A stretch of DNA of 64,000 nucleotides from a phage: sequence record PZ445427.1; one strand, given 5' to 3'. The position numbers were made by a program, and so were the translations under genes. The notes beneath the pieces were generated by a model. It ran no database searches, was not told the DNA's origin, and saw nothing but the letters and a program-made list of their open reading frames with translations. Positions within the stretch are counted from its first letter, which is position 1. Each line of letters begins with the position of its first letter. Shown here in pieces: positions 1,905 through 39,494 of this stretch.

Positions 1905-4464
1905 CTAAAATCCTTTTCACATTATCCAGATCTTTACATACAGCAATAAACTTATCATCCTTGTACTTGCTGTGGTCTGGATGCTCTTTATCCATTGCAG
2001 CTAACTTCTTATACTCGAAATCTGCATCGAGTAATACACCCTTAACATAACGAGTATATTCATCATCATCAATACAAGCGATTGATGGGTGCTGTTTCTT
2101 CATCTTACCACAAGAGTAGTCACGAGAACCACCTTTCTCAGAATCAGAATCAATACCGATTGGGCAGCCAGGGATACTAATACCACGATCCTTCTGGATG
2201 TTACGAATCAGAATCTCGTTATACTGATCAATCAGATCTTCACGTACAATAGCAACCACGGAGTCGTGAACCAACATGACAATCTTCATCTCTTTTCCTA
2301 GACCCAGGGACAGGATTTCTTCATCAGCATCAATAGCACCTAACAACAGGCTATCAGAAGATGCAGACTGAATGATTGCGTTAAATCCAGAACGGATTTC
2401 TTCACCCTGAACACCACGATCTTCGGAGTGGATATTGTGCAGACGACGCTTACGACCAAAGTGACTATAGATGAATCCAAAGTTCTTGATCTGATCGTGG
2501 CACTTATCAATCCAACGCTTAAGCTGAGGGAACTGACCGAAGTAAGTTTCGATATAGTCCTTCGCATCTGCAACGGTACATTCAACAAACGGTTCGCCTG
2601 TCTTAGCGGCCTGTTCCAGAAGAGCTTCGTTAACAGAGTGAGCGACTTTAGCTGGGCCAGAACCATACAGAATACCGAAGGTAATTGCCTTAGCAGCCTG
2701 ACGCAGAGCTGGGAACAACTTCTTAACATCACGCGGTTCACAGGTCAGTTTAAATACCATGTGTGCGATGTTTGAGTGGAAGTCAGGGTATTTATCAGGC
2801 TCATTCTTCATGTTGATAAATACTTGTTGCATATTTCTGTCACCAGACAGAACAGCAGCATAATAAACTTCCGCAGTTGTTAAGTCCCATGCGATTACAC
2901 GATATCCAGGAGGAGCTACTACACAACCCTTGATAATAGATTCATCACGTGGTAGCTGTTGCAGGTTCAGCTTACCAGAAGAACTCAGACGACCAGAAGT
3001 AGTCATATGTTCATGGAAACCAGTACGAATGCAACCATCTGCATCAATGCTCAGAAGAATCTTCTCAACATAAGTAGAGATCAGCTTAGTCAGCTTACGA
3101 ATCTCTAGCAGAGTCTTAGCAATTGGATGCTGAGTAGCCAGTTCGTTCAGAGCTTCTGCGTTTGTAGAATCTGCACCTGTATCTGTCAGCTTACCAGTTG
3201 GAGTCAGACCAACATAATCAAATAAAAGAACACGGAGCTGCTTAACAGAGTTAGGGTTAAATGCTTCGTTCTGGTCTTTTTCTAGCTGAACGACTTCTGG
3301 ATAAGTATACAGTTTCTCACGAGCCTTGTTCAGATTGTGAGTTAGCTGATACTGAGCTTCTTTCAAGCGATCAACAGAAATCGGTACACCACGATCTTCC
3401 ACACGTTGCAAGAATACACAACCAGGCATCAGAACGTCATAGTATAGACTGCAAAGCTTTTCATTCTTCTCAATTTTCGGTAAGAAGAAGTTATGCAGAC
3501 GCAGAGTAGCATCGGTATCTTTTGCAGCATAAGGCCACATAATATCAAATGGAATCAGATCATAGCTGAAATCTTCTTTCTTGATCTTATGTGCTTTGCA
3601 ATAATCCTCCTTGAACTTATCCAGTTCAAAGTCATAATCACCCATGTCAGTATACTTCATAGCCAGAGATTTCAGGCCGTGAGTACCACGACGTTCATCA
3701 AGAACATAGTGTTGTAACATGGTATCGTGAAGTCTACGCTCTTTATGTGCTTTCTCAAAGGAAAGTCCTAGATGATAGGAGTAAAAGTGCATATCAAACT
3801 TCAAGTTATGAAAAACGATCTGATGATTCTTGCTATCCAGAATTTTCTGGAGATAATGTACAGCTACTTCGGTGATACTGTCAGAGTCAATATAGACACC
3901 CTGATACTCTTGGTGAGACATAGAAACACCAAGCAGATAACCATCACGAGCATACAGAGCCGAGGTTTCGGAGTCGAATGCGATAGGCCCGATAACCATG
4001 TTATACACCATCTTGATGTATTCTTCAGCTTCATCTGGATCAGTAATAGGACGATAGTCACCGGCTTTTGCAATCTTCTCACGACCATTAATAATGTCGT
4101 GAATACTTTCTACAGTTGCTTCAAAGACCGGTTTCATTTCAGGCTTAAAGTGTAGCTGAGCTGGACTGATACTTGCAATCCAGTTGGCGTAGCCACCATG
4201 CTCTACACGTTTACCAGTATAATCACCGATACCTTTCTTACCTGCGAAATACAGGAAAGGTTCAGCACCAACTAGTACCACAAAATCGTAATCGTTCGGA
4301 TCGAACGGGTTATCTGGAGTTCCGATTGTAATATGCTTTTTCAGCAGACGACCAGATAACTTCTCGTTACACATATGGAATACATCAACTTCCTCACCAT
4401 AGAGTTGGAAGTGTTTATCATAACGAGTGTTATTTAGAGCTTTATCAACTACTGCAATTTTCAA
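1897..4464 (-). CDS. DNA polymerase, family A, with 3'-5' exonuclease domain
   Basis: 855-aa ORF; exo motif FDSETS; pol motif B RQAAKAITFGILYG; motif C LVHDS; length as recalled for T5 DNA polymerase. Confidence 0.95.
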   Translation of the reverse strand: MKIAVVDKALNNTRYDKHFQLYGEEVDVFHMCNEKLSGRLLKKHITIGTPDNPFDPNDYDFVVLVGAEPFLYFAGKKGIGDYTGKRVEHGGYANWIASISPAQLHFKPEMKPVFEATVESIHDIINGREKIAKAGDYRPITDPDEAEEYIKMVYNMVIGPIAFDSETSALYARDGYLLGVSMSHQEYQGVYIDSDSITEVAVHYLQKILDSKNHQIVFHNLKFDMHFYSYHLGLSFEKAHKERRLHDTMLQHYVLDERRGTHGLKSLAMKYTDMGDYDFELDKFKEDYCKAHKIKKEDFSYDLIPFDIMWPYAAKDTDATLRLHNFFLPKIEKNEKLCSLYYDVLMPGCVFLQRVEDRGVPISVDRLKEAQYQLTHNLNKAREKLYTYPEVVQLEKDQNEAFNPNSVKQLRVLLFDYVGLTPTGKLTDTGADSTNAEALNELATQHPIAKTLLEIRKLTKLISTYVEKILLSIDADGCIRTGFHEHMTTSGRLSSSGKLNLQQLPRDESIIKGCVVAPPGYRVIAWDLTTAEVYYAAVLSGDRNMQQVFINMKNEPDKYPDFHSNIAHMVFKLTCEPRDVKKLFPALRQAAKAITFGILYGSGPAKVAHSVNEALLEQAAKTGEPFVECTVADAKDYIETYFGQFPQLKRWIDKCHDQIKNFGFIYSHFGRKRRLHNIHSEDRGVQGEEIRSGFNAIIQSASSDSLLLGAIDADEEILSLGLGKEMKIVMLVHDSVVAIVREDLIDQYNEILIRNIQKDRGISIPGCPIGIDSDSEKGGSRDYSCGKMKKQHPSIACIDDDEYTRYVKGVLLDADFEYKKLAAMDKEHPDHSKYKDDKFIAVCKDLDNVKRILGA

Positions 4465-6968: not shown

Positions 6969-7736
6969 TTATTCAGCAGCCGCAGCTTTTGCATCCAGTT
7001 TAGCACGCTTAGCGGCACCATCATAGTCCTTAGCAACCAGACCACGACGAGACAGCATAGATTTAACACCGCGCTCAGACTTACCAGTTTTCTCAGCGAT
7101 CTCAGCAACAGTCATGTTAGCCAGATCCAGACCTTCTAACAGATCTTCACGAGTTTTAGCACTTGAAGTTTCCTGTACCGGCATAGCAGCGATACGACCT
7201 TCACGAAGCAGGCTCAGAGCTTTACCACGAATCTGCTTAATATTGCGACCGAAGTGAGCAGCGATAGCTTCAATAGTAGCACCAGCAACAACCTGATTAA
7301 CGAAATCAGTTTCTTCGTCAGGAGTGAAGGAACGAACAGCAGCAGCTTTTTCAGTTGGCTTAACAGAAGCGGTCATTTCCAGACTCAGGATCTTACCCTG
7401 TACCTGCTTAGCACCGAACTGACCACCAGCTACAGCAGCAGCGATTTCAGCGTAAGTATACTGACCAGCATGAGCGTTCAGGAAATCAACTAGTTCAGCT
7501 TCCTGCTCAGGAGTCCACGGGGATTTCTGTACTTCGTTAGCTTTCTGTACTTCGAAACCTTCTTTACGCAGCTTAGAGCCAACAGAGCGAGCGGTAACGT
7601 CTTTGCCAGTCTCGGTAGCCAGTTCAGCAGCGATAGCAGCTACTTGTTCTTGAGAGATTACAGCAACACCCAGAGCAGTGGCTTTTGCTTTCAGAGACTC
7701 GGTTACACCTTCTACGTTCCAGTTCAGTTTAGACAT
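6969..7736 (-). CDS. Ala-rich protein with repeated HTH-like units, putative DNA-binding regulator
   Basis: 255 aa; repeated segments resembling helix-turn-helix (e.g. MTVAEIAEKTGKSERGVKSMLSRRGL). Confidence 0.45.
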   Translation of the reverse strand: MSKLNWNVEGVTESLKAKATALGVAVISQEQVAAIAAELATETGKDVTARSVGSKLRKEGFEVQKANEVQKSPWTPEQEAELVDFLNAHAGQYTYAEIAAAVAGGQFGAKQVQGKILSLEMTASVKPTEKAAAVRSFTPDEETDFVNQVVAGATIEAIAAHFGRNIKQIRGKALSLLREGRIAAMPVQETSSAKTREDLLEGLDLANMTVAEIAEKTGKSERGVKSMLSRRGLVAKDYDGAAKRAKLDAKAAAAE

Positions 7737-22469: not shown

Positions 22470-24800
22470 ATGAGCCATCGCATAGAAAAAGTAATCAAAC
22501 GTGACGGTACTGTAGAAGACTTTGCTCCTGAAAAACTCAATGGTTGGGCAGTGTATGGCTGCAAAACAGTTGATGTAAGCTGGTCATCCATCACTATGGC
22601 TGCTCAAAAAACTCTACCTAAAGGTGTTGTAGACTCCGACACCCTAATGGATGCGTTAATTAAAGCCGCTGAAGGTCTTATCAAAGATAACCCAGCATAT
22701 GATGTGCCAGCTAAGGAATTACGTCTTGCGCAGATGCGTAAACGTCTATATGACTCCTTCGAGCCTCCTTCTCTGCGTTTCTTCCACGATCATATGGTTA
22801 GTGTTGGAGCTTGGGAAGACATGAGTGCATGGATTAGCGATGATCAGTTTGATGCTCTGAATCAAGTTATCGATCATGATCGCGATCGTTTATTCACCAG
22901 TGGTGGACTGAAACAGTTCTTCGACAAGTATTCCCGTCGTAATATTGCAACTGGTGAAATTTATGAAACCCCGCAGTTTGCCTACATGGGCATGGCAATG
23001 GCGATGTTATCTCAACCTAACTGGACAATCCTAGATGCAATCGACCTCTACAATGCAATGTCGCTCCACAAAATCAACGTTCCTACTCCACCTCTCGTGG
23101 GTCTTAGGAGCAGCGACCGCGGTTTTGCTTCTTGTTGTCTTGTTGATAGTACTGATACCCTCGATTCAATCGACACAGCCGAGCATATCGTCTTCAAAAT
23201 GGTCGCAGCCAGAGCGGGAATCGGGTATCATCTTGAAAGCCGATCAATTGCTGATCCGGTGCGAAATGGGGCATTCCCGCATTCCGGAAAACTGCCATAT
23301 TATCGACACATTGACCGTTCAGTAAAAGCTAACACTCAGCAAACCCGTGGCGGTTCTGCTACTGTGTCTTATCCATACTTCGATCCTGAAATCATTCAGT
23401 TGATGCAGGTTAAGCAGCAACGTGCTACAGACGAGAATAAAATCGATAAGATGGATTATTCTCTGAGCTTTAACAACCTTCTGTTAAAACGTTACCTGAA
23501 AAACGAAGATATTACGCTAATGTCCTACTTCTACGCACCAGAAGTTCATGAAGCGTTTTATGGTGAAGATGAGGCTAAGTTTGAAGAAATCTACGTGGCA
23601 GCGGAGAAACGTGTGGCATCTCTTACAAAGACCGACCACGAAGGAAAAACAATTCCAGCAGCTCCTAGAATCTCTGCAAAAGAAATCCTAGATACTTGGT
23701 TACGTATCCGTATGGAAACAGGGCGTATGTATGCTCATCACATTGGTGAATCTAACCGTCATGGTAACTTCCTTGACCCGATTCGTATGACCAACCTTTG
23801 TGTTGAAATTACTCAGCCAACCCGTCCATTCCATCACATTACGGAACTGTATAAAACCCAAGATCAGTTAGACGATATGCGTCCAGAAGATATTGGTGAA
23901 GTATCTCTGTGTAACTTAGGTGGTGTTGTACTAGGCCGCATGGAATCTCTGGCTGAATGGGAGAAAACTTGCTACATCCTTCTGAAATTCGTTGATACAA
24001 TCATCGAGATTCAGGATTACCCATTCCCAACTATGGAATACACGGCTAAGAAACGTCGAAACGTTGGTATTGGCCTGATGAACGCAGCAGGTGCAATGGC
24101 AGCAGAAGGTTTGGCTTACGAAGGTGTTGAAGCTCGTAACTGGATTCACCGTGAAGCTGAAAAACTGTCTTACTTCCTGCACAAAGCATCTGTACGTCTG
24201 GCTAAAGAACAAGGTGCATGTGACTGGTTTAATCGTACTAAGCCATCCAAAGGAACTCTGGTAATCGACACGTACAAGAAAACTGTTGATGAACTGGTAA
24301 CCGTAGGTCTAGAAATGGATTGGGAATCTCTGCGTGCAGATATCCTGAAATACGGTATGCGTAACTCTGTTCTGACTGCTCAGATGCCGGGTGAAAGTTC
24401 CTCTGTACTGCTAGGTGTTACTAACTCTATTGAACCACCTCGTAAGATTGTATCTATCAAGGGTAGTGCAGTGAATAAAGTAATTGCAATTGCTCCAGGT
24501 GCAACCGATTGGGATACATTAATGAGCTATAAACTGGCTTATGATGTAGATCGTATCGAGTGGATCAAATGGGTAGCAACCATGCAGAAATTTTTCAGTC
24601 AGTCTATCAGTACGAATATGTACTATGACTACACCAAGTTTGAGAATGAAATCATTCCTGGTCCAGTAGTAGTTCGTGATTTCATGACTGCTGTTAAGTA
24701 CGGTTGGAAAACTTGGTACTACGCTAACTTCAACACTGAAAATGGTGGTGGAGCTGGTGAAGAAGCAGCAGGTTGTGCATCCGGTGGTTGTAACCTATAA
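22470..24800 (+). CDS. nrdA: ribonucleoside-diphosphate reductase alpha subunit (class Ia)
   Basis: ATP-cone KRDGTVEDF at chosen start; catalytic-site region EVSLCNLGG; ORF extends to 22365 but upstream part looks like leader. Confidence 0.85.
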   Translation: MSHRIEKVIKRDGTVEDFAPEKLNGWAVYGCKTVDVSWSSITMAAQKTLPKGVVDSDTLMDALIKAAEGLIKDNPAYDVPAKELRLAQMRKRLYDSFEPPSLRFFHDHMVSVGAWEDMSAWISDDQFDALNQVIDHDRDRLFTSGGLKQFFDKYSRRNIATGEIYETPQFAYMGMAMAMLSQPNWTILDAIDLYNAMSLHKINVPTPPLVGLRSSDRGFASCCLVDSTDTLDSIDTAEHIVFKMVAARAGIGYHLESRSIADPVRNGAFPHSGKLPYYRHIDRSVKANTQQTRGGSATVSYPYFDPEIIQLMQVKQQRATDENKIDKMDYSLSFNNLLLKRYLKNEDITLMSYFYAPEVHEAFYGEDEAKFEEIYVAAEKRVASLTKTDHEGKTIPAAPRISAKEILDTWLRIRMETGRMYAHHIGESNRHGNFLDPIRMTNLCVEITQPTRPFHHITELYKTQDQLDDMRPEDIGEVSLCNLGGVVLGRMESLAEWEKTCYILLKFVDTIIEIQDYPFPTMEYTAKKRRNVGIGLMNAAGAMAAEGLAYEGVEARNWIHREAEKLSYFLHKASVRLAKEQGACDWFNRTKPSKGTLVIDTYKKTVDELVTVGLEMDWESLRADILKYGMRNSVLTAQMPGESSSVLLGVTNSIEPPRKIVSIKGSAVNKVIAIAPGATDWDTLMSYKLAYDVDRIEWIKWVATMQKFFSQSISTNMYYDYTKFENEIIPGPVVVRDFMTAVKYGWKTWYYANFNTENGGGAGEEAAGCASGGCNL

Positions 24801-27433: not shown

Positions 27434-27440
27434 TTCAAAT

Positions 27441-27463
27441 AGCCCTTCGGGGCTATTATATTT
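27441..27463 (+). terminator. UUCG-tetraloop hairpin / terminator
   Basis: AGCCC-TTCG-GGGCT followed by ATTATATTT. Confidence 0.5.
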
Positions 27464-28896: not shown

Positions 28897-28925
28897 TTGC
28901 TAAACGCTTCAAAATTTCGTATAAT
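28897..28925 (+). promoter_or_regulatory. promoter cassette (TTGCTA-N17-TATAAT)
   Basis: upstream of 28964 gene. Confidence 0.6.
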
Positions 28926-28963
28926 ATATCTCATAAATTGATCAACAAAAAGGAAAACAAATA

Positions 28964-29479
28964 ATGGCTAAGCAGAAAAACGCAAAAACTCAGGCAGCTC
29001 CGGCAGTTAAAACTTTCGCTCAGACCGAAGCCAATCGTAAGGCTCGTCTGGAACGTCATCTGCGTAAGCATCCTACTGATGCTCAGGCTCAGACTGCCCT
29101 GAAGTCTGCGGCTCCGGTTCGCCAGAAGCCGAAGGCCAAGAACTCTACTCGCGCAACTGCTAAGCAGATTGTGTTCATCAAGGATGAAGGTCATAAGTCT
29201 GTACCGGTAACTCTGAGCTTTAACGGCGGTGCTGAGATGTTCGCCCGCAACGGTATGGCTCTGAAAGACTACGAAAAAGCAGTCAATCAGAAGCGTAAGC
29301 CAATGGCTGACGTAATGCGTGAATCCCGTGGACAGTTTGGCTCCGTTAAACCGAATATTTTCGGTGTAGAGTATAGCCGTGACAACGTTCGCGCTCTGTG
29401 CTACGGTATCGGTATTAAGTTTACTGGTGCTTCTGATCGTAAATCCGCTAAACCTACTCGTAAGCGTAAAGCGAAGTAA
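28964..29479 (+). CDS. highly basic Lys/Ala-rich protein (171 aa), probably abundant early protein
   Basis: codon usage shifts to CTG/CGT/GCT-rich; antisense ORF 28931..29503 judged spurious. Confidence 0.6.
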   Translation: MAKQKNAKTQAAPAVKTFAQTEANRKARLERHLRKHPTDAQAQTALKSAAPVRQKPKAKNSTRATAKQIVFIKDEGHKSVPVTLSFNGGAEMFARNGMALKDYEKAVNQKRKPMADVMRESRGQFGSVKPNIFGVEYSRDNVRALCYGIGIKFTGASDRKSAKPTRKRKAK

Positions 29480-29487
29480 TGATTGAT

Positions 29488-29501
29488 GGGGCGAAAGCCC
29501 C
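29488..29501 (+). other. GNRA-tetraloop hairpin GGGGC-GAAA-GCCCC
   Basis: perfect 5-bp stem with GAAA loop right after stop codon; no T-run. Confidence 0.5.
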
Positions 29502-29540
29502 ATATACTAACTCTTTCTCTGACTAATTAAGGATATTTTT

Positions 29541-29756
29541 ATGTTCTCTAAGAAACCACGTTCCGTTACTGAAATCGTTGCTTCCTTTACCACTATTACT
29601 GATGAACTTCAAGCTCGTATTGAAGCTGACCAGAAAACTGCTGCTGATATTCAGAAACAGCAGGAAGAACTCGCTCTGAAACTGGCTGAAACCAATAAGA
29701 GTGAAAAATCTGCTCAAACTATTAAGGAAAATATCCTTAAACTGCTGGGCAAGTAA
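29541..29756 (+). CDS. hypothetical protein (71 aa)
   Basis: ORF with host-like codon usage. Confidence 0.5.
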   Translation: MFSKKPRSVTEIVASFTTITDELQARIEADQKTAADIQKQQEELALKLAETNKSEKSAQTIKENILKLLGK

Positions 29757-29765
29757 TTTAAATCA

Positions 29766-29788
29766 GGGGGCGAAAGCCCCTCTTATTT
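29766..29788 (+). terminator. GNRA-hairpin terminator
   Basis: GGGGC-GAAA-GCCCC followed by TCTTATTT. Confidence 0.5.
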
Positions 29789-29797
29789 GGAGAAACT

Positions 29798-30010
29798 ATG
29801 CGTAACTTCGTTGCAAAGAATGATTTTAACCGTGCTAGCACTCACAAGTCTGCTAGAGACTACACTCGTCTTTCTAAACATGAGCTTCTAGAAGAAATCA
29901 TGGAAGAAAACTGGGATGTTAGTGAAAATGGAACAGACCTGTTTGAAGAAGAGGAACTTCCTCTGAAAGACCCCAAACAGTGGGAGTCTATTAAAGAGAC
30001 AGCTCTTTAA
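29798..30010 (+). CDS. hypothetical acidic protein (70 aa)
   Basis: ORF. Confidence 0.5.
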   Translation: MRNFVAKNDFNRASTHKSARDYTRLSKHELLEEIMEENWDVSENGTDLFEEEELPLKDPKQWESIKETAL

Positions 30011-30040
30011 TAGTTTTCTACAACAATAAAGGACATAATT

Positions 30041-30742
30041 ATGAAATTCAAGCCCTTTGGTATGCTGGACATTGAATCTCTAGGTACTCCAGGAAATTGC
30101 GGTACTACTCATATTGCAATGCCTTCTTTCGCTTTTGTAGCGATGCACGGAATTGATAAAGATCCTGATCTGGTATTCGTTACTCTAGACGTTCAAGATC
30201 AGCTTAATGCGGGTGCTAAGGTAACTGCCTCTACTATTGCATTCTGGATGGATCAAGCTAAAAACAGTCCATCTGCGCTCCATATTATGGAGGCTCTAAA
30301 TGGTCGTAATCCTAAACTGATTGCCTTCCGTGATGGTAAGCATCACTGCACTAATGACGTAGGCTCTAATTATGCTGCCTTCTCTATGGCTCAGAACATT
30401 ATGGAATTGTCTCTAGGAGATAATGCTCTGTATTACGGCAATGGCCCAGAGTTTGATATGACAATCTACTCTGCAAATACGTTCCATGCCGGAACCCATG
30501 AAGAAATAGTTCCGTGGAAATTCTGGAACTTAGGTAACGTTCGATCTTTCCGTAATCAGTGGATGCAAGCTGGTTATAGCTATAAAGATCTAGAAGCCGA
30601 AGGTGCTAGCTGGGCAAAAGCTAAAATGGAAAAGATGGACACCATTCGTTATGGAATCTATCCTGTGAAGCATGATCCAGCATTCGATGCTTTAGTTGAA
30701 AGTTATTGTGTAGCCGTCATGATCGAAAAAATCAAAATTTGA
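30041..30742 (+). CDS. hypothetical protein (233 aa)
   Basis: ORF with SD AAAGGA. Confidence 0.6.
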   Translation: MKFKPFGMLDIESLGTPGNCGTTHIAMPSFAFVAMHGIDKDPDLVFVTLDVQDQLNAGAKVTASTIAFWMDQAKNSPSALHIMEALNGRNPKLIAFRDGKHHCTNDVGSNYAAFSMAQNIMELSLGDNALYYGNGPEFDMTIYSANTFHAGTHEEIVPWKFWNLGNVRSFRNQWMQAGYSYKDLEAEGASWAKAKMEKMDTIRYGIYPVKHDPAFDALVESYCVAVMIEKIKI

Positions 30743-30743
30743 T

Positions 30744-30772
30744 TTGCTTTCAGCTCCAAAATTCTGTATAAT
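30744..30772 (+). promoter_or_regulatory. promoter cassette (TTGCTT-N17-TATAAT)
   Basis: -35 begins right after upstream stop. Confidence 0.6.
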
Positions 30773-30812
30773 ATATTCATAAATTTGAGAGAACAACAAA
30801 AGGAAAACAATT

Positions 30813-30995
30813 ATGCCAGTATCTAAAAACGTCCGTAAAAATGGTAAAGTAGCAAAACGTAACCTGGGTCTGCGTCGTATGGCTGAACGTCAGTCCGGCA
30901 TCCAGAAAATCTTTAACGTACTGAATCGCGCCAATCCGAATATTGATAACAGTTCTGATACTGTTCTGCGCACTCTGCTCGCAATCGGTCTGTAA
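30813..30995 (+). CDS. small basic protein (60 aa)
   Basis: ORF after promoter cassette. Confidence 0.5.
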   Translation: MPVSKNVRKNGKVAKRNLGLRRMAERQSGIQKIFNVLNRANPNIDNSSDTVLRTLLAIGL

Positions 30996-31049
30996 TAGAC
31001 CGTTTTTAAAACAAATTCAAATCTCAAACTTCATATAAGGAAGCAAATA

Positions 31050-31688
31050 ATGACTACTCGTATCTCTAAAACTCGTGCTCTGGCAACTATCAAGTCTCTG
31101 GAAGCTAAAATCCGTAAAGCTACTGAACAACAGCTTTTGATTGCTGTTGGTGAAGGTAAAGACAAGAATCAAGTTGTCGTTGGTGCTGCAATCGAAGTAG
31201 ATGCTCTGTCTACTCGTATTAAAACTGATTTCCAGTCTCTGCTGGATATGATGACCCAGCGTGATCATCTGAAAGCAGCGCTGATCAAGAGCAATGCTGA
31301 AACTGTTGTAGAGATCGGTTCCCGCTCTATGACTGTTGCGGAAGCAATCGAAGCTAAGCGTTCTATGGAACTCAAAGCTCAGTTGCTGGCTAACATGCGT
31401 AAGCAGTTCCATGCTGCTACTGTTAAGTTTAACACTCAAAAGGCTCAGTTTGATGCCAAGTATGAGCGTTTGCAGGATACCATGGCTACCCGTGACAAGA
31501 AGACTTCCGAGGATGAAGTTAAGATGCAGCTTAACCTGCTGGAACTCAAGAACACTCCGTTCCTGATCGATCCGCTGGAGCTGGAAAAGCTGATCAAGCA
31601 ACACGACGAAGAGTACCAGGACTTTGCAACCAACGTTGACTTTGTTCTGTCTGAGTCCAACGCCTCTACTTTTATCGAAGTAGAGTAA
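31050..31688 (+). CDS. hypothetical protein (212 aa), predicted helical
   Basis: ORF; three overlapping antisense/alternative ORFs judged spurious. Confidence 0.6.
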   Translation: MTTRISKTRALATIKSLEAKIRKATEQQLLIAVGEGKDKNQVVVGAAIEVDALSTRIKTDFQSLLDMMTQRDHLKAALIKSNAETVVEIGSRSMTVAEAIEAKRSMELKAQLLANMRKQFHAATVKFNTQKAQFDAKYERLQDTMATRDKKTSEDEVKMQLNLLELKNTPFLIDPLELEKLIKQHDEEYQDFATNVDFVLSESNASTFIEVE

Positions 31689-32072
31689 TAATTTAAAAGA
31701 CTAGTAAATCGGTAGACGAAAGCCCAAGCATCTTACCTCGCAGCAGCGGTTGAAATACGAGGTTAAATAAGACCGCTGACCATACTATAAAGTATAATCT
31801 ATTGGAGATTATGTTTATTACATCAGACATTTAATCTGACACGTAAAAACAAAAGGTCGTTGGTAGTACCAACACAACTTCAAAGATCAACGCTCAAGTA
31901 TGAAAGCTGAAAAGTTAAAAGCACTCAAACTTCTAACCTTCTAAAGCTAAAAGATGCAAAGTATTCGTTGATGATTCAAACCCTAGATCAAAGGTACATG
32001 GCTCATAAGATATGGCCTGTGGCGCCTCTAGGCTGTTTATCGGTTTACTAGTCTCTCAATTTAAAAATGTAT

Positions 32073-33629: not shown

Positions 33630-34482
33630 ATAAATTAGAGAACAGCGAGCCGATTACGCTGAGTGAGTTTAGTGATTCCTACTAGGATAGCTATTCCACT
33701 GAATAGAGTCGGTGAGTTGGAGACTAGTAAGTACTCTGAGAGAGGCTACGAGCTAACGCTTATTGCTATTGATAGGGAACTGAAAATCTGCGGAAAACTC
33801 GGGAGCTGTCCCGAAATCTCGTAAACTCTTCTCTAGTTTATGTTAGTGGGGTGTCGAACTGACTTATGTGATAACACTGCCGTCCTAGTATAAACGGTAA
33901 TATCAAACCGTAACTGGTGGAAGATGCAGGTTCGAATCCTGCGGTCGGAAAGAATCAGATAACTCGGGCTTATACCGGATAAGCATTCGCTGCTGGAGTA
34001 CATACTATGACGGTTCAGGAGGTACGCCACCTGATCAGTATTAGGTTAGAATCGAAACAGCTAAACCACGAGGAAACCTGACGGCCTCAACCAAACTCGG
34101 AACTCGGGATCACTGCCTAGTGTGTGCCCCGTTTAACCTGAGACTAGGCATCCAGCTTCGCATCGAAAATCGGAGGTGCGATTCTAACAGACCGCGTGAA
34201 TATGAGAGTGGGAAACGCTGACATGAGAGATGTCACTAATGGTGCCCAATAGTACAGGTAATTCGCGATAATTCCTGTTGAGCGGCAGCAGTAGGCTGGG
34301 AGTCATGACCTAAGCCTAACCGAGTTCTTCACATACGGAGAACATAACCACAAAGTCACCCTGACTTAAACTGGAAGATATTGTCTGACGGAAGGGCTGC
34401 AGAGCTTAATCTGAGGGGGCTGACCCTACCTACCGTCGGGTATCTTTAAGAGCTTTTATAAGAGTTCTTAAAAATACCTAAA
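33630..34482 (+). ncRNA. candidate large structured non-coding RNA (about 850 nt), class unknown
   Basis: no plus-strand ORF >=60 aa; balanced composition unlike AT-rich spacers; hairpins (e.g. GCCTAGT...ACTAGGC); three AACTCGGG repeats; internal partial tRNA copy. Confidence 0.45.
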
Positions 34483-39486: not shown

Positions 39487-39494
39487 AGTAGTTA

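What the first reader, a model, noticed from the sequence alone, without database searches (positions are those of the whole stretch)
28964..31688. Cluster of short genes with host-like high-expression codon usage and GNRA-hairpin punctuation
Seen in sequence: genes 28964..29479, 29541..29756, 30813..30995 and 31050..31688 are rich in CTG/CGT/GCT/AAC codons, unlike neighbouring AT-rich genes, and are separated by perfect GGGGC-GAAA-GCCCC hairpins (29488, 29766). Inference: very highly expressed early proteins with transcripts stabilised or processed at GNRA hairpins.
Basis: partly seen in the sequence, partly recalled or inferred. Interest (0 to 1): 0.35.

Follow-up and report, generated by a model that had tools for sequence, protein, structure and literature searches.

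The report
Strongly expressed T5-type early operons
This stretch of a T5-like phage holds two early operons, driven by very strong promoters, whose first genes are codon-tuned to the host and bounded by terminator-like hairpins; this is ordinary phage design, but the last gene is followed by a large, conserved structured RNA that is in no RNA family database.

Summary
The four named ORFs have codon adaptation indices of 0.67-0.74 against E. coli ribosomal-protein genes (which score 0.70). The window mean is 0.41, and the two genes lying between them score 0.46-0.47. Both GGGGC-GAAA-GCCCC hairpins sit where stated.

The window is an Epseptimavirus (T5 family). The genes are homologues of T5.089, T5.086 and T5.085, plus a 71-aa cassette gene. 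They lie behind the classic promoter P-H207 and a sibling promoter. Published RNA-seq of the relative Bas33 ranks the T5.089 and T5.085 homologues sixth and fourth among the early and late genes I could read. It also shows a 75-fold drop in RNA across the hairpin.

The hairpin stem is invariant in 27 relatives, but the GNRA loop is not. The hairpin that carries a U-tract looks like a bidirectional intrinsic terminator. The other is a copy that bounds the 71-aa gene, which is present in some relatives and absent from others. So high expression is supported and "GNRA processing" is not.

Outside the stated coordinates, at 31699-32053, lies a ~355-nt RNA. It has pseudoknots supported by covariation and an array of NNNAAAG heptamers. 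It follows T5.085 homologues in 47 of 56 diverse loci and matches no Rfam 15 family.

The parts
28897..28925 (+). Sigma-70 early promoter, homologue of T5 P-H207 (TTGCTA, 17-nt spacer, TATAAT). It has an upstream A-tract and a downstream ATAAATTGA. The leader CAACAAAAAGGAAAACAAATAATG follows.
   Evidence: Promoter scan, 10 of 12 consensus matches. The T5 record annotates 'promoter P-H 207' at the equivalent place before T5.089. It is 92.8% identical to 23 Tequintavirus loci, against 78% for the gene behind it.
28964..29479 (+). T5.089 homologue, a 171-aa very basic protein (Pfam DUF7022), CAI 0.734.
   Evidence: (PF22887, E 2e-79). The AlphaFold model has low confidence (pLDDT 62.7). The Bas33 orthologue has 7677/6658 TPM.
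29486..29503 (+). Hairpin 1: ATGGGGC-GAAA-GCCCCAT, 7-bp stem, no U-tract after it.
   Evidence: -13.8 kcal/mol, z -4.05. The stem is invariant and the loop variable in relatives. The outer pairs AT..AT in the window versus TA..TA in Tequintavirus are compensatory.
29541..29756 (+). 71-aa predicted coiled-coil protein (phrog_2380), CAI 0.681. It is a cassette gene bounded by the two hairpin copies.
   Evidence: It is present in 19 of 27 IMG/VR relatives and absent from 8, including T5. Bas33 also lacks it.
29766..29781 (+). Hairpin 2: GGGGGC-GAAA-GCCCCT followed by CTTATTTGG. It is terminator-like on both strands and its tail overlaps the ribosome-binding site of the next gene.
   Evidence: -15.7 kcal/mol. 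The equivalent single hairpin in T5 also fits a terminator on both strands. RNA falls from 7677 to 102 TPM across it in Bas33.
29798..30742 (+). Distal, average-CAI genes of operon 1: the T5.088 homologue (29798-30010, CAI 0.47) and the T5.087 homologue (30041-30742, CAI 0.46), an Rv2179c-like 3'-5' exoribonuclease.
30744..30772 (+). Second T5-type early promoter (TTGCTT, 17-nt spacer, TATAAT). It has the same downstream region and the same leader, CAACAAAAGGAAAACAA.
   Evidence: My promoter-family scan. The T5 record annotates an unnamed promoter at the equivalent place. It is 93.2% conserved.
30813..30995 (+). T5.086 homologue, a 60-aa basic protein (phrog_5252), CAI 0.665.
   Evidence: The Bas33 orthologue has 3368/3035 TPM.
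30986..31002 (+). Hairpin CGGTCTG-TAA-TAGACCG overlapping the T5.086 stop codon, followed by TTTTT.
   Evidence: -8.2 kcal/mol. Expression downstream is higher, not lower, in Bas33, so at most it is leaky.
31050..31688 (+). T5.085 homologue, a 212-aa helical protein, CAI 0.736. It belongs to a very large uncharacterised family and is mis-annotated as 'tail fiber protein'.
31699..32053 (+).
- P1 closing stem: 31699-31714 with 32038-32053.
- H-type pseudoknot: S1 31736-31740 with 31758-31762; S2 31744-31751 with 31771-31778.
- Long-range loop contact: 31730-31735 with 32006-32011.
- NNNAAAG heptamer array: about 31878-31962.
- 3' domain: 31979-32035.
   Evidence: No Rfam match.

Best explanation
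The flagged stretch is the P-H207 region of the early gene block of a T5-like phage (Epseptimavirus).

Architecture. Two tandem transcription units are each headed by a near-consensus sigma-70 early promoter with the same A-rich leader. Unit 1 runs P-H207, DUF7022 protein (T5.089), hairpin 1, 71-aa gene, hairpin 2, T5.088, exoribonuclease. Unit 2 runs promoter, 60-aa basic protein (T5.086), 212-aa protein (T5.085), structured RNA.

Codon tuning. The four flagged genes are needed in bulk rather than catalytic amounts, and they have been tuned for the host's abundant tRNAs. Their CAI equals that of E. coli ribosomal-protein genes. They almost completely avoid the codons that the phage's own tRNAs serve. 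They can therefore be translated at full rate as soon as early transcription begins (inferred).

Hairpins. The GC-clamp hairpins are transcript boundary elements. The copy with a U-tract (hairpin 2 here, the only copy in T5 and Bas33) acts as an efficient, bidirectional intrinsic terminator or 3'-end anchor. It separates the high-output promoter-proximal segment from the low-output distal genes. That it coincides with a boundary is shown at gene level in Bas33; the mechanism is inferred. Hairpin 1 is a second copy of the stem-loop without a U-tract. It arose with the insertion of the 71-aa gene upstream of the terminator tail, or remains after that gene is lost elsewhere. It most likely acts only as an intercistronic 3' protective stem (inferred). 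The GNRA loop is not required.
For: Identity and context.
- The stretch is 99.9% identical to Escherichia phage IrmaTschudi (Epseptimavirus).
- The T5 record annotates P-H207 before T5.089 and a promoter before T5.086.
- About 20 promoters of the same TTGCTW-17-TATAAT type occur in the window, and these two share the leader CAACAAAAGGAAAACAA.

Codon bias.
- CAI is 0.67-0.74 against a window mean of 0.41. Synonymous resampling gives z = 4.2-9.2.
- The bias is conserved in orthologues. In T5 they score 0.63, 0.55 and 0.67 against neighbours at 0.26-0.46. In a distant T5-like contig they score 0.77, 0.70 and 0.59 against 0.16-0.48.
- The codons TTA, CTA, AGA, ACA, TCA, GGA, CAA and ATA make up 1.4% of the four genes. 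They make up 10.4% of the rest of the window and 1.7% of E. coli ribosomal-protein genes. The phage carries 29 tRNA genes, including Leu-UAA, Leu-UAG, Arg-UCU, Thr-UGU, Ser-UGA, Gly-UCC and Gln-UUG.

Expression.
- The top-CAI gene of the window is the D5-like DNA-binding protein. Its Bas33 orthologue (98% identical) is the most abundant transcript I saw, at 22868 TPM.
- The T5.085, T5.089 and T5.086 homologues have 8541, 7677 and 3368 TPM, against a median of about 1450 for 24 other early genes.
- CAI against log TPM over 29 paired genes gives Pearson r = 0.61, p = 4e-4.

Hairpins.
- The stem is invariant in 27 relatives. There are two copies when the 71-aa gene is present and one when it is absent.
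- The pattern of U-tract plus upstream A-tract fits a terminator on both strands.
- RNA drops 75-fold across the single hairpin in Bas33.
Against: - All expression evidence is gene-level RNA-seq at one time point (20 min), in a relative (a Tequintavirus) and not this phage. There are no protein data.
- Downstream of the hairpin the exoribonuclease gene is back at 3569 TPM, yet no consensus promoter lies in between. The dip at T5.088 could therefore reflect selective decay rather than termination.
- The T5.085 homologue has more RNA than the upstream T5.086 homologue, which simple operon polarity does not predict.
- Hairpin 1 has no U-tract, and nothing measures its effect.
- The CAI-TPM correlation is moderate (Spearman 0.46). 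One low-CAI gene, the ligase B subunit upstream of D5, also has high TPM.
- The biochemical functions of all four proteins are unknown.
Confidence: 0.75

Rival explanations
1. The hairpins are RNA processing or stabilising elements defined by their GNRA tetraloops. A nuclease or a tetraloop-receptor contact recognises them, and mature mRNA ends are made there rather than by termination.
For: - Hairpin 1 lacks a U-tract, so it cannot be a canonical terminator.
- The T5.088 segment is depleted relative to both flanks in Bas33, and selective decay between protective structures could explain that.
- The loop is GNRA in 26 of 28 copies of the U-tract hairpin.
Against: - The loop of hairpin 1 is TTCT, AGAA or TTTA in 9 of 20 genomes, while the stem never changes.
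- GAAA/TTTC and AGAA/TTCT are simple flips of the palindrome, which argues that the loop sequence is not under selection.
- The stems are 5-7 bp, too short for RNase III (established knowledge).
- The U-tract copy meets the sequence criteria of an intrinsic terminator on both strands.
Confidence: 0.2
2. The host-like codon usage reflects recent acquisition of these genes from an enterobacterial host, not selection for expression.
For: Codon usage resembles that of E. coli highly expressed genes.
Against: - All homologues found are phage or viral-contig proteins. DUF7022 had 34 hits, all named ones from phages. The T5.085 family is in phage contigs.
- Third-position GC of the four genes is 0.32-0.47, within the phage range.
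- The bias matches the highly expressed subset of E. coli genes. For comparison, rpoA scores 0.56 and secY 0.48 with the same weights.
- The bias is conserved in orthologues that have diverged to 40-80% protein identity.
Confidence: 0.03
3. The codon bias serves timing rather than amount. These genes must be translated in the first minutes after second-step DNA transfer, before phage tRNAs accumulate, whatever their final abundance.
For: They almost completely avoid the codons served by phage tRNAs, 1.4% against 10.4%. They lie directly behind early promoters.
Against: - RNA abundance at 20 min is still among the highest.
- The D5-like protein, which also has high CAI, is the most abundant transcript in that data set.
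- Many other genes behind the same type of promoter have average CAI.
- The two ideas do not exclude each other.
Confidence: 0.25
4. The repeated hairpin is mainly a DNA-level element: a short palindromic repeat that mediates gain and loss of the 71-aa gene cassette, with no role in RNA.
For: - The 71-aa gene is present or absent exactly between the two copies.
- Genomes with one copy combine the left flank of hairpin 1 with the right flank of hairpin 2.
- Loop inversions are typical of palindromes.
Against: - Genomes that never had, or have lost, the cassette keep the hairpin with its U-tract right after the T5.089 stop codon, where RNA drops 75-fold.
- Compensatory changes in the outer stem pairs point to selection for pairing.
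- A role in recombination can coexist with a role in RNA.
Confidence: 0.15

Closest known systems
Bacteriophage T5 early promoter P-H207 and the T5.089-T5.085 region (NC_005859)
   Same: Gene order, promoter positions and promoter sequence type are the same. The four proteins are orthologues: 80% identity for T5.089 and 97% for T5.085. The single T5 hairpin GGGGCGAAAGCCCC + TCATATTTTGG corresponds to hairpin 2 here.
   Different: This phage, like 19 of 27 relatives, carries an extra 71-aa gene and a second hairpin copy that T5 lacks. In the T5 record no terminator, RNA or function is annotated for these elements, and T5.085 is called 'tail fiber protein'.
Codon-adapted, highly expressed genes of E. 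coli and its phages (Sharp and Li codon adaptation index; established knowledge)
   Same: CAI is at the level of ribosomal-protein genes, with the same preferred codons (CTG, CGT, GCT, ACT, GGT, CCG, ATC, CAG) and near-absence of rare codons. CAI tracks RNA abundance in a relative.
   Different: The phage carries 29 tRNA genes of its own, and most of its genes use the codons those tRNAs read. Only a handful of early genes are tuned to the host pool.
Rho-independent (intrinsic) bidirectional terminators with GC stem and tetraloop
   Same: Hairpin 2 and the T5/Bas33 single hairpin have a GC-rich 5-6-bp stem, a 4-nt loop, a T-rich tail and an upstream A-tract. RNA drops steeply across the Bas33 copy.
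   Different: The U-tract is interrupted (CUUAUUUGG, UCAUAUUUUGG) and overlaps the next gene's ribosome-binding site. Hairpin 1 has no U-tract at all. Termination itself was not measured.
Large 'ornate' bacterial and phage non-coding RNAs found near tRNA genes (GOLLD, ROOL) and OLE RNA with its partner protein
   Same: This comparison concerns the RNA at 31699-32053. It is several hundred nucleotides long, with multiple helices and pseudoknots supported by covariation. It is phage-borne and often lies inside tRNA arrays. It is always linked to one protein family, as OLE is to OAP.
   Different: No Rfam family, including GOLLD, ROOL and OLE, matches it at E up to 10. It is smaller (about 330-380 nt), has a heptamer NNNAAAG repeat array, and always lies immediately 3' of its partner gene on the same strand.

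Membership tests
T5-type sigma-70 early promoter (P-H207 class) | -35 TTGCTW, 17-nt spacer, -10 TATAAT, an A-rich block upstream of -35 and a conserved initially transcribed ATAAATTGA | tested here: met
   28897-28925 and 30744-30772 both fit. The T5 record labels the equivalent sites as promoter P-H 207 and promoter.
T5-type sigma-70 early promoter (P-H207 class) | Measured promoter activity or a mapped transcription start | not testable with these tools
   The only evidence is indirect: high TPM of the downstream genes in Bas33. The high in vivo strength of P-H207 is recalled from the older promoter literature and was not checked here.
Highly expressed, codon-adapted genes | CAI near that of the host's ribosomal-protein genes, and not explained by amino-acid composition | tested here: met
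   CAI 0.665-0.736 against 0.70 for the reference set. Resampling gives z = 4.2-9.2 with 0 of 2000 draws as high.
Highly expressed, codon-adapted genes | High measured expression | tested here: inconclusive
   RNA is high for three orthologues in Bas33 at 20 min. There are no data for the 71-aa gene and no protein data.
Intrinsic (Rho-independent) terminator | GC-rich stem-loop immediately followed by a U-tract | tested here: met
   Hairpin 2 (29766-29781 + CTTATTTGG) and the T5 hairpin pass the scan on both strands. Hairpin 1 (29486-29503) does not: no U-tract.
Intrinsic (Rho-independent) terminator | Transcripts end at the U-tract | tested here: inconclusive
   A 75-fold gene-level drop across the Bas33 hairpin is consistent with this. 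3' ends were not mapped, and the next gene but one is again abundant.
GNRA-tetraloop hairpin as the functional unit | GNRA loop conserved among homologous hairpins | tested here: not met
   Hairpin 1 loops in 20 genomes: GAAA 9, GAGA 2, AGAA 3, TTCT 5, TTTA 1. U-tract hairpin in 28 genomes: GAAA 25, GTAA 1, TTTC 2.
Tail fiber protein (database name of T5.085 / phrog_1491) | Late, structural gene with a fibre-like fold | tested here: not met
   The gene lies in the early block behind an early promoter. The predicted fold is an all-helical bundle. All fold matches are uncharacterised proteins or 3kdq/DUF6847. Presence in virions was not tested.
DUF6847 (PDB 3kdq) for the 212-aa protein | Significant sequence or profile match and a shared fold | tested here: inconclusive
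RNase P RNA (considered for the RNA at 31699-32053) | P4 pseudoknot between CR-I and CR-V, and a match to the RNase P covariance models | tested here: not met
   No Rfam RNase P hit at E up to 10. The E. coli-like string UCAUAAGAUAUG is a hairpin loop here. The P4-like pairing seen in this window is not conserved in relatives.
tmRNA (considered for the RNA at 31699-32053) | tRNA-like domain and a tag reading frame | tested here: not met
   ARAGORN finds no tmRNA in the window. There is no Rfam tmRNA hit. The A-rich region has 7-nt periodicity, which is incompatible with coding.

The most novel reading that the evidence does not exclude
The 212-aa gene (31050-31688) and the ~355-nt RNA right behind it (31699-32053) may form a previously undescribed, very widespread protein-RNA module.

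The RNA. It is an ornate RNA with a closing stem, an H-type pseudoknot, a long-range loop contact and an array of NNNAAAG heptamers. It is co-transcribed with a dark protein family of more than 3000 clusters.

The proposed mechanism. The protein binds the RNA, possibly one protomer per 7-nt repeat. The module rides in phage tRNA islands in T5-like siphoviruses, PVP-SE1/GAP31-type myoviruses, Av-05 and many uncultured phages, and it also occurs in a Solibacillus chromosome. This position suggests a role in tRNA or translation biology, or in countering defences that target tRNAs.

On this reading the high expression and codon tuning of T5.085 reflect stoichiometric coating of an abundant RNA.
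Probability: 0.35. Interest if true: 0.8.

Novelty: new member of a known kind. Interest (0 to 1): 0.45.

Why it matters
The finding as given. It shows how a phage that carries its own tRNA set still reserves a few bulk early proteins for the host's best codons, and how it uses a terminator hairpin to set a steep expression step inside an operon. This is useful for annotation and for choosing T5 parts in engineering, but it is not surprising. The four proteins are among the most expressed early products of a classic model phage and none has a known function, which makes them good targets.

The larger payoff lies next door. A conserved structured RNA, absent from Rfam, is tied to a protein family of thousands of members that databases call "tail fiber". 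If confirmed, it adds a new large non-coding RNA class with a dedicated partner protein. It also corrects a mis-annotation that has spread through hundreds of phage genomes.

Tried and rejected
- RNase P-like RNA. By eye, the RNA at 31699-32053 shares strings with E. coli M1 RNA (GACGAAAGCCC, GGCTCATAAGATATGGCC, GGCTGTTTATCGG). I rejected the idea. There is no Rfam hit at E up to 10, the UCAUAAGAUAUG string is a covarying hairpin loop, and the P4-like pairing is specific to this window.
- tmRNA or Y-RNA-like. ARAGORN and Rfam find nothing.
- DNA element (iterons or origin) for the same region. This is unlikely. Many strand-specific G-U pairs, such as the invariant U-G at alignment columns 19/430 and 389/400, and the pseudoknot covariation indicate an RNA on the + strand.
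- Rad anti-retron protein of T5-like phages. It is a different, 189-aa gene in the tRNA region.
- Structure of the DUF7022 protein. The AlphaFold model was too poor (pLDDT 62.7, pTM 0.26) for a fold search. PDB sequence searches were empty.
- A promoter between the hairpin and the exoribonuclease gene. Consensus scans found none in T5 or in a relative.
- An error of mine, corrected. I first took bas33_0072 for the 71-aa gene. Fetching the Bas33 record showed it is the T5.088 homologue and that Bas33 has only one hairpin.
- Technical dead ends. A 37-kb E. coli locus was not exported to the script machine, so I refetched a 13.7-kb one. The afdb50 fold library was unavailable. The phiR2-01 proteomics tables are not held. 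Literature searches for the T5.08x gene names, for DUF7022, and for a phage RNA of this kind found nothing.


Full report
WHAT THE WINDOW IS

Bases 28900-31750 are 99.9% identical to Escherichia phage IrmaTschudi and many Salmonella phages of the genus Epseptimavirus. They are 80-90% identical to T5 and other Tequintavirus phages. The window carries 29 tRNA genes at 34-49 kb and no tmRNA.

The flagged stretch lies in the early gene block between RNase H and the tRNA island. In the T5 reference record, the elements run in this order along the transcribed strand, which there is the minus strand:
- promoter P-H 207
- T5.089
- T5.088
- T5.087 "exonuclease"
- a promoter
- T5.086
- T5.085 "tail fiber protein"
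- about 360 nt with no annotated feature
- a promoter
- T5.084

CHECK OF THE OBSERVATION

The four ORFs are as stated. I built CAI weights from 26 ribosomal-protein genes of E. coli MG1655.

| Gene | CAI |
|---|---|
| 28964-29479 | 0.734 |
| 29541-29756 | 0.681 |
| 30813-30995 | 0.665 |
| 31050-31688 | 0.736 |
| 107 window ORFs, mean (sd) | 0.41 (0.13) |
| Reference ribosomal-protein genes | 0.70 |
| rpoA | 0.56 |
| secY | 0.48 |

The greedy ORF picker first chose a 190-aa antisense ORF over 28964-29479, which I corrected.

I then kept each protein sequence and redrew synonymous codons from the rest of the window. This gave z = 7.0, 4.2, 5.9 and 9.2, with 0 of 2000 draws as high as observed. 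The genes in between (29798-30010, 30041-30742) and the gene upstream are ordinary.

The two GGGGCGAAAGCCCC hairpins are at 29488 and 29767. They are unique in the window and lie 7-11 nt after stop codons. The predicted stems have energies of -13.8 and -15.7 kcal/mol.

WHY THE CODON BIAS MEANS EXPRESSION

- The window's highest CAI (0.79) belongs to the D5-like DNA-binding protein. The next comparable value (0.73) belongs to a 136-aa DNA-binding protein.
- A 2026 PNAS paper (PMC13250531) gives RNA-seq for the Tequintavirus Bas33 (HildyBeyeler) 20 min after infection.
- In its table, the D5-like orthologue (98% identical) has 22868/16641 TPM in the two control replicates.
- The 136-aa protein's orthologue (95% identical) has 10586/8010.
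- The T5.085 homologue has 8541/6881, the T5.089 homologue 7677/6658 and the T5.086 homologue 3368/3035. RNase H has 785/856.
- Among the genes in the two table parts I read, the T5.085 and T5.089 homologues rank 4th and 6th. Pre-early genes and genes of the tRNA region are listed elsewhere and I did not see them.
- I paired 29 early genes between the window and Bas33 by order and length. CAI correlates with log TPM (Pearson 0.61, p = 4e-4; Spearman 0.46, p = 0.012).
- The bias is conserved in orthologues. T5 scores 0.63, 0.55 and 0.67 against neighbours at 0.26-0.46. A distant T5-like contig scores 0.77, 0.70 and 0.59 against 0.16-0.48.
- The four genes almost never use TTA, CTA, AGA, ACA, TCA, GGA, CAA or ATA: 1.4% of codons against 10.4% in the rest of the window. 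These are the codons for which the phage brings its own tRNAs.

They are therefore independent of the phage tRNA supply. Whether that matters for timing, for amount, or for both is inference.

THE PROMOTERS

28897-28925 and 30744-30772 are TTGCTW-17-TATAAT promoters with an upstream A-tract and a downstream ATAAATTGA, like about 20 others in the window. They are better conserved (about 93%) than the genes behind them (78-88%). They share an identical leader, CAACAAAAGGAAAACAA, which the other promoters of this type lack. From memory of the older promoter literature, P-H207 is among the strongest E. coli RNA polymerase promoters known. I did not verify this here.

THE HAIRPINS

In 27 related IMG/VR genomes the GGGGC/GCCCC stem never changes. 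The 71-aa gene is present in 19 relatives, which have two hairpins. It is absent from 8, including T5, which have one (Bas33, not in this set, also has one). That single hairpin has the left context of hairpin 1 and the right context of hairpin 2. The cassette of gene plus one stem-loop copy was therefore gained or lost between the repeats.

Loop sequences are as follows.

| Hairpin | Genomes | Loops |
|---|---|---|
| Hairpin 1 | 20 | GAAA 9, GAGA 2, AGAA 3, TTCT 5, TTTA 1 |
| U-tract hairpin | 28 | GAAA 25, GTAA 1, TTTC 2 |

GAAA/TTTC and AGAA/TTCT are flips of the palindrome. The outer stem pairs differ in a compensatory way, AT..AT here and TA..TA in Tequintavirus.

The U-tract hairpin meets terminator criteria on both strands here and in T5. 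Bas33 has the T5 arrangement. Across its hairpin, RNA falls from 7677 to 102 TPM at the T5.088 homologue.

The stem-loop with its U-tract therefore coincides with a strong transcript boundary, and GNRA is not the conserved feature. One point is unexplained: the exoribonuclease gene just beyond is back at 3569 TPM, with no consensus promoter in between.

THE FOUR PROTEINS

- T5.089 homologue. It belongs to Pfam DUF7022 and is very basic. It has a conserved N-terminal TEANR..R...H...H..D.Q motif, a variable middle, and a conserved C-terminal FGSVKPNIFGVEYSRENVRALCYG block. It models poorly. This suits a nucleic-acid-binding protein that folds on its partner (inference). UniRef calls it "virion structural protein" without evidence that I could trace.
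- The 71-aa and 60-aa proteins match only PHROGs of unknown function.

THE RNA JUST OUTSIDE THE COORDINATES

Conservation.
- The 382-nt gap after T5.085 is the best-conserved segment of the neighbourhood, 95.3% identical to Tequintavirus loci against 78-88% for the flanking genes.
- It is present at 90% identity or more in 438 of 439 phage records and is almost never annotated.
- It folds far better than shuffled sequence, z = -6.0.

Distribution.
- The same element follows T5.085 homologues that are only 32-44% identical, in unrelated phages.

Structure, from an alignment of 14 diverse copies.
- A 16-bp closing stem.
- An H-type pseudoknot whose second helix exists in at least eight different sequence versions.
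- A three-helix 3' domain.
- A 6-bp contact between a conserved 5' AUCUUR and a hairpin loop YAAGAU. This contact covaries (A-U in 9 copies, G-C in 5). In distant phages it is replaced by other complementary pairs such as UAAACA/UGUUUA (by eye).

Statistical support.
- Overall 96.1% of cells pair and 25 of 40 pairs show double changes.
- No shuffle out of 500 reaches the observed values, and sliding the partners drops pairing to 40-50%.
- Frequent G-U pairs place the RNA on the + strand.

The repeat array.
- The centre is an array of NNNAAAG heptamers. AAAG occurs 191 times against 65.7 expected (z = 15.7), with spacings of 7, 14 and 21 nt.

Linkage to the protein gene.
- A covariance model of the 3' domain has 97.8% of cells paired and 51 double-change cells.
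- It hits 47 of 56 sources (the window plus 55 other loci) that carry a T5.085 homologue. Every source has a single hit, always on the + strand, 210-370 nt after the gene's stop codon.
- It also hits two further loci fetched independently, one of them in a Solibacillus chromosome, where a terminator follows the RNA.

Hosts and databases.
- Carriers include PVP-SE1, GAP31, 4MG and Av-05.
- The module often sits inside tRNA arrays.
- No Rfam 15 family matches.
- I considered RNase P RNA and tmRNA and rejected both.

The function is unknown. The tight linkage suggests either a protein-RNA complex or a cis-acting 3' element of the T5.085 mRNA. In Bas33 the T5.085 homologue has 2.5 times more RNA than the gene upstream of it, which would fit a stabilising 3' structure.

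VERDICT

The high-expression reading is supported. The GNRA-processing reading is replaced by a terminator or 3'-anchor stem-loop that also marks a cassette boundary. Taken alone this is ordinary phage architecture in a well-known region (interest about 0.25). The adjacent RNA and its partner protein family are the unexpected part (interest about 0.7 if confirmed as new). The overall score is 0.45.

Noticed in passing
window 31699-32053 (+): An unannotated ~355-nt structured RNA lies directly after the 212-aa gene. It has a closing stem, an H-type pseudoknot, a long-range loop contact and an array of NNNAAAG heptamers. It is the most conserved segment of the area, is found after T5.085 homologues in 47 of 56 diverse loci, and matches no Rfam 15 family.
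   Followed up: partly
window 29504-29781; loci L005-L031: The 71-aa gene and one hairpin copy form a cassette that is present in some genomes and absent from others. Of 27 relatives, 19 have the gene and two hairpins and 8, including T5, have one hairpin and no gene (Bas33, outside this set, also has one). Hairpin loops flip between GAAA/TTTC and AGAA/TTCT, as expected for inversion of a palindrome.
   Followed up: yes
window 28931-29503 (-) and 31017-31604 (-): Long antisense ORFs (190 and 195 aa) lie opposite the two largest high-CAI genes, and the first is longer than the real gene. The four genes contain no TTA, CTA or TCA codons, whose reverse complements are the stop codons, so the antisense frame in codon register has no stops. 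This is a trap for gene callers; my own greedy picker fell into it.
   Followed up: partly
NC_105119.1 63,888-64,854 (L116): In Bas33 RNA-seq the T5.088 homologue has about 100 TPM, although it lies between genes at 7677 and 3569 TPM. No consensus promoter lies before the exoribonuclease gene.
   Followed up: partly
window 29798-30742: The T5.088 and T5.087 homologues match consecutive parts of one PHROG exonuclease profile: phrog_255 positions 75-131 and 178-363 of 436. They may be the two halves of a split gene.
   Followed up: no
window 31050-31688 and hundreds of GenBank records: The name 'tail fiber protein' for T5.085 homologues has spread through T5-like, PVP-SE1-like and Av-05 records. 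The gene is early, its product is predicted to be helical, and nothing about it suggests a fibre.
   Followed up: yes
window 27438-27457: A hairpin AATAGCCC-UUCG-GGGCTATT with a UUCG tetraloop lies 5 nt after the thymidylate synthase stop codon. Similar stem-loops just after stop codons, several with clean T-runs, occur at 39494, 56653, 57877, 59136 and 61706. Hairpin punctuation is therefore general in this early region and not special to the flagged cluster.
   Followed up: no
window 33879-33950 (+): Rfam reports a weak tRNA-like match (29.3 bits, at the gathering threshold) that ARAGORN does not call. It lies in the region equivalent to T5 'RNAX', a stable RNA of unknown function upstream of tRNA-Arg.
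   Followed up: no
L117 (Solibacillus silvestris JBQCJW010000003.1, 172,457-173,400): A T5.085-family gene and its RNA occur as a stand-alone unit ending in a terminator. The unit lies in a bacterial chromosome among genes that do not look phage-derived (LysM peptidase, SIMPL, aldehyde dehydrogenase).
   Followed up: partly
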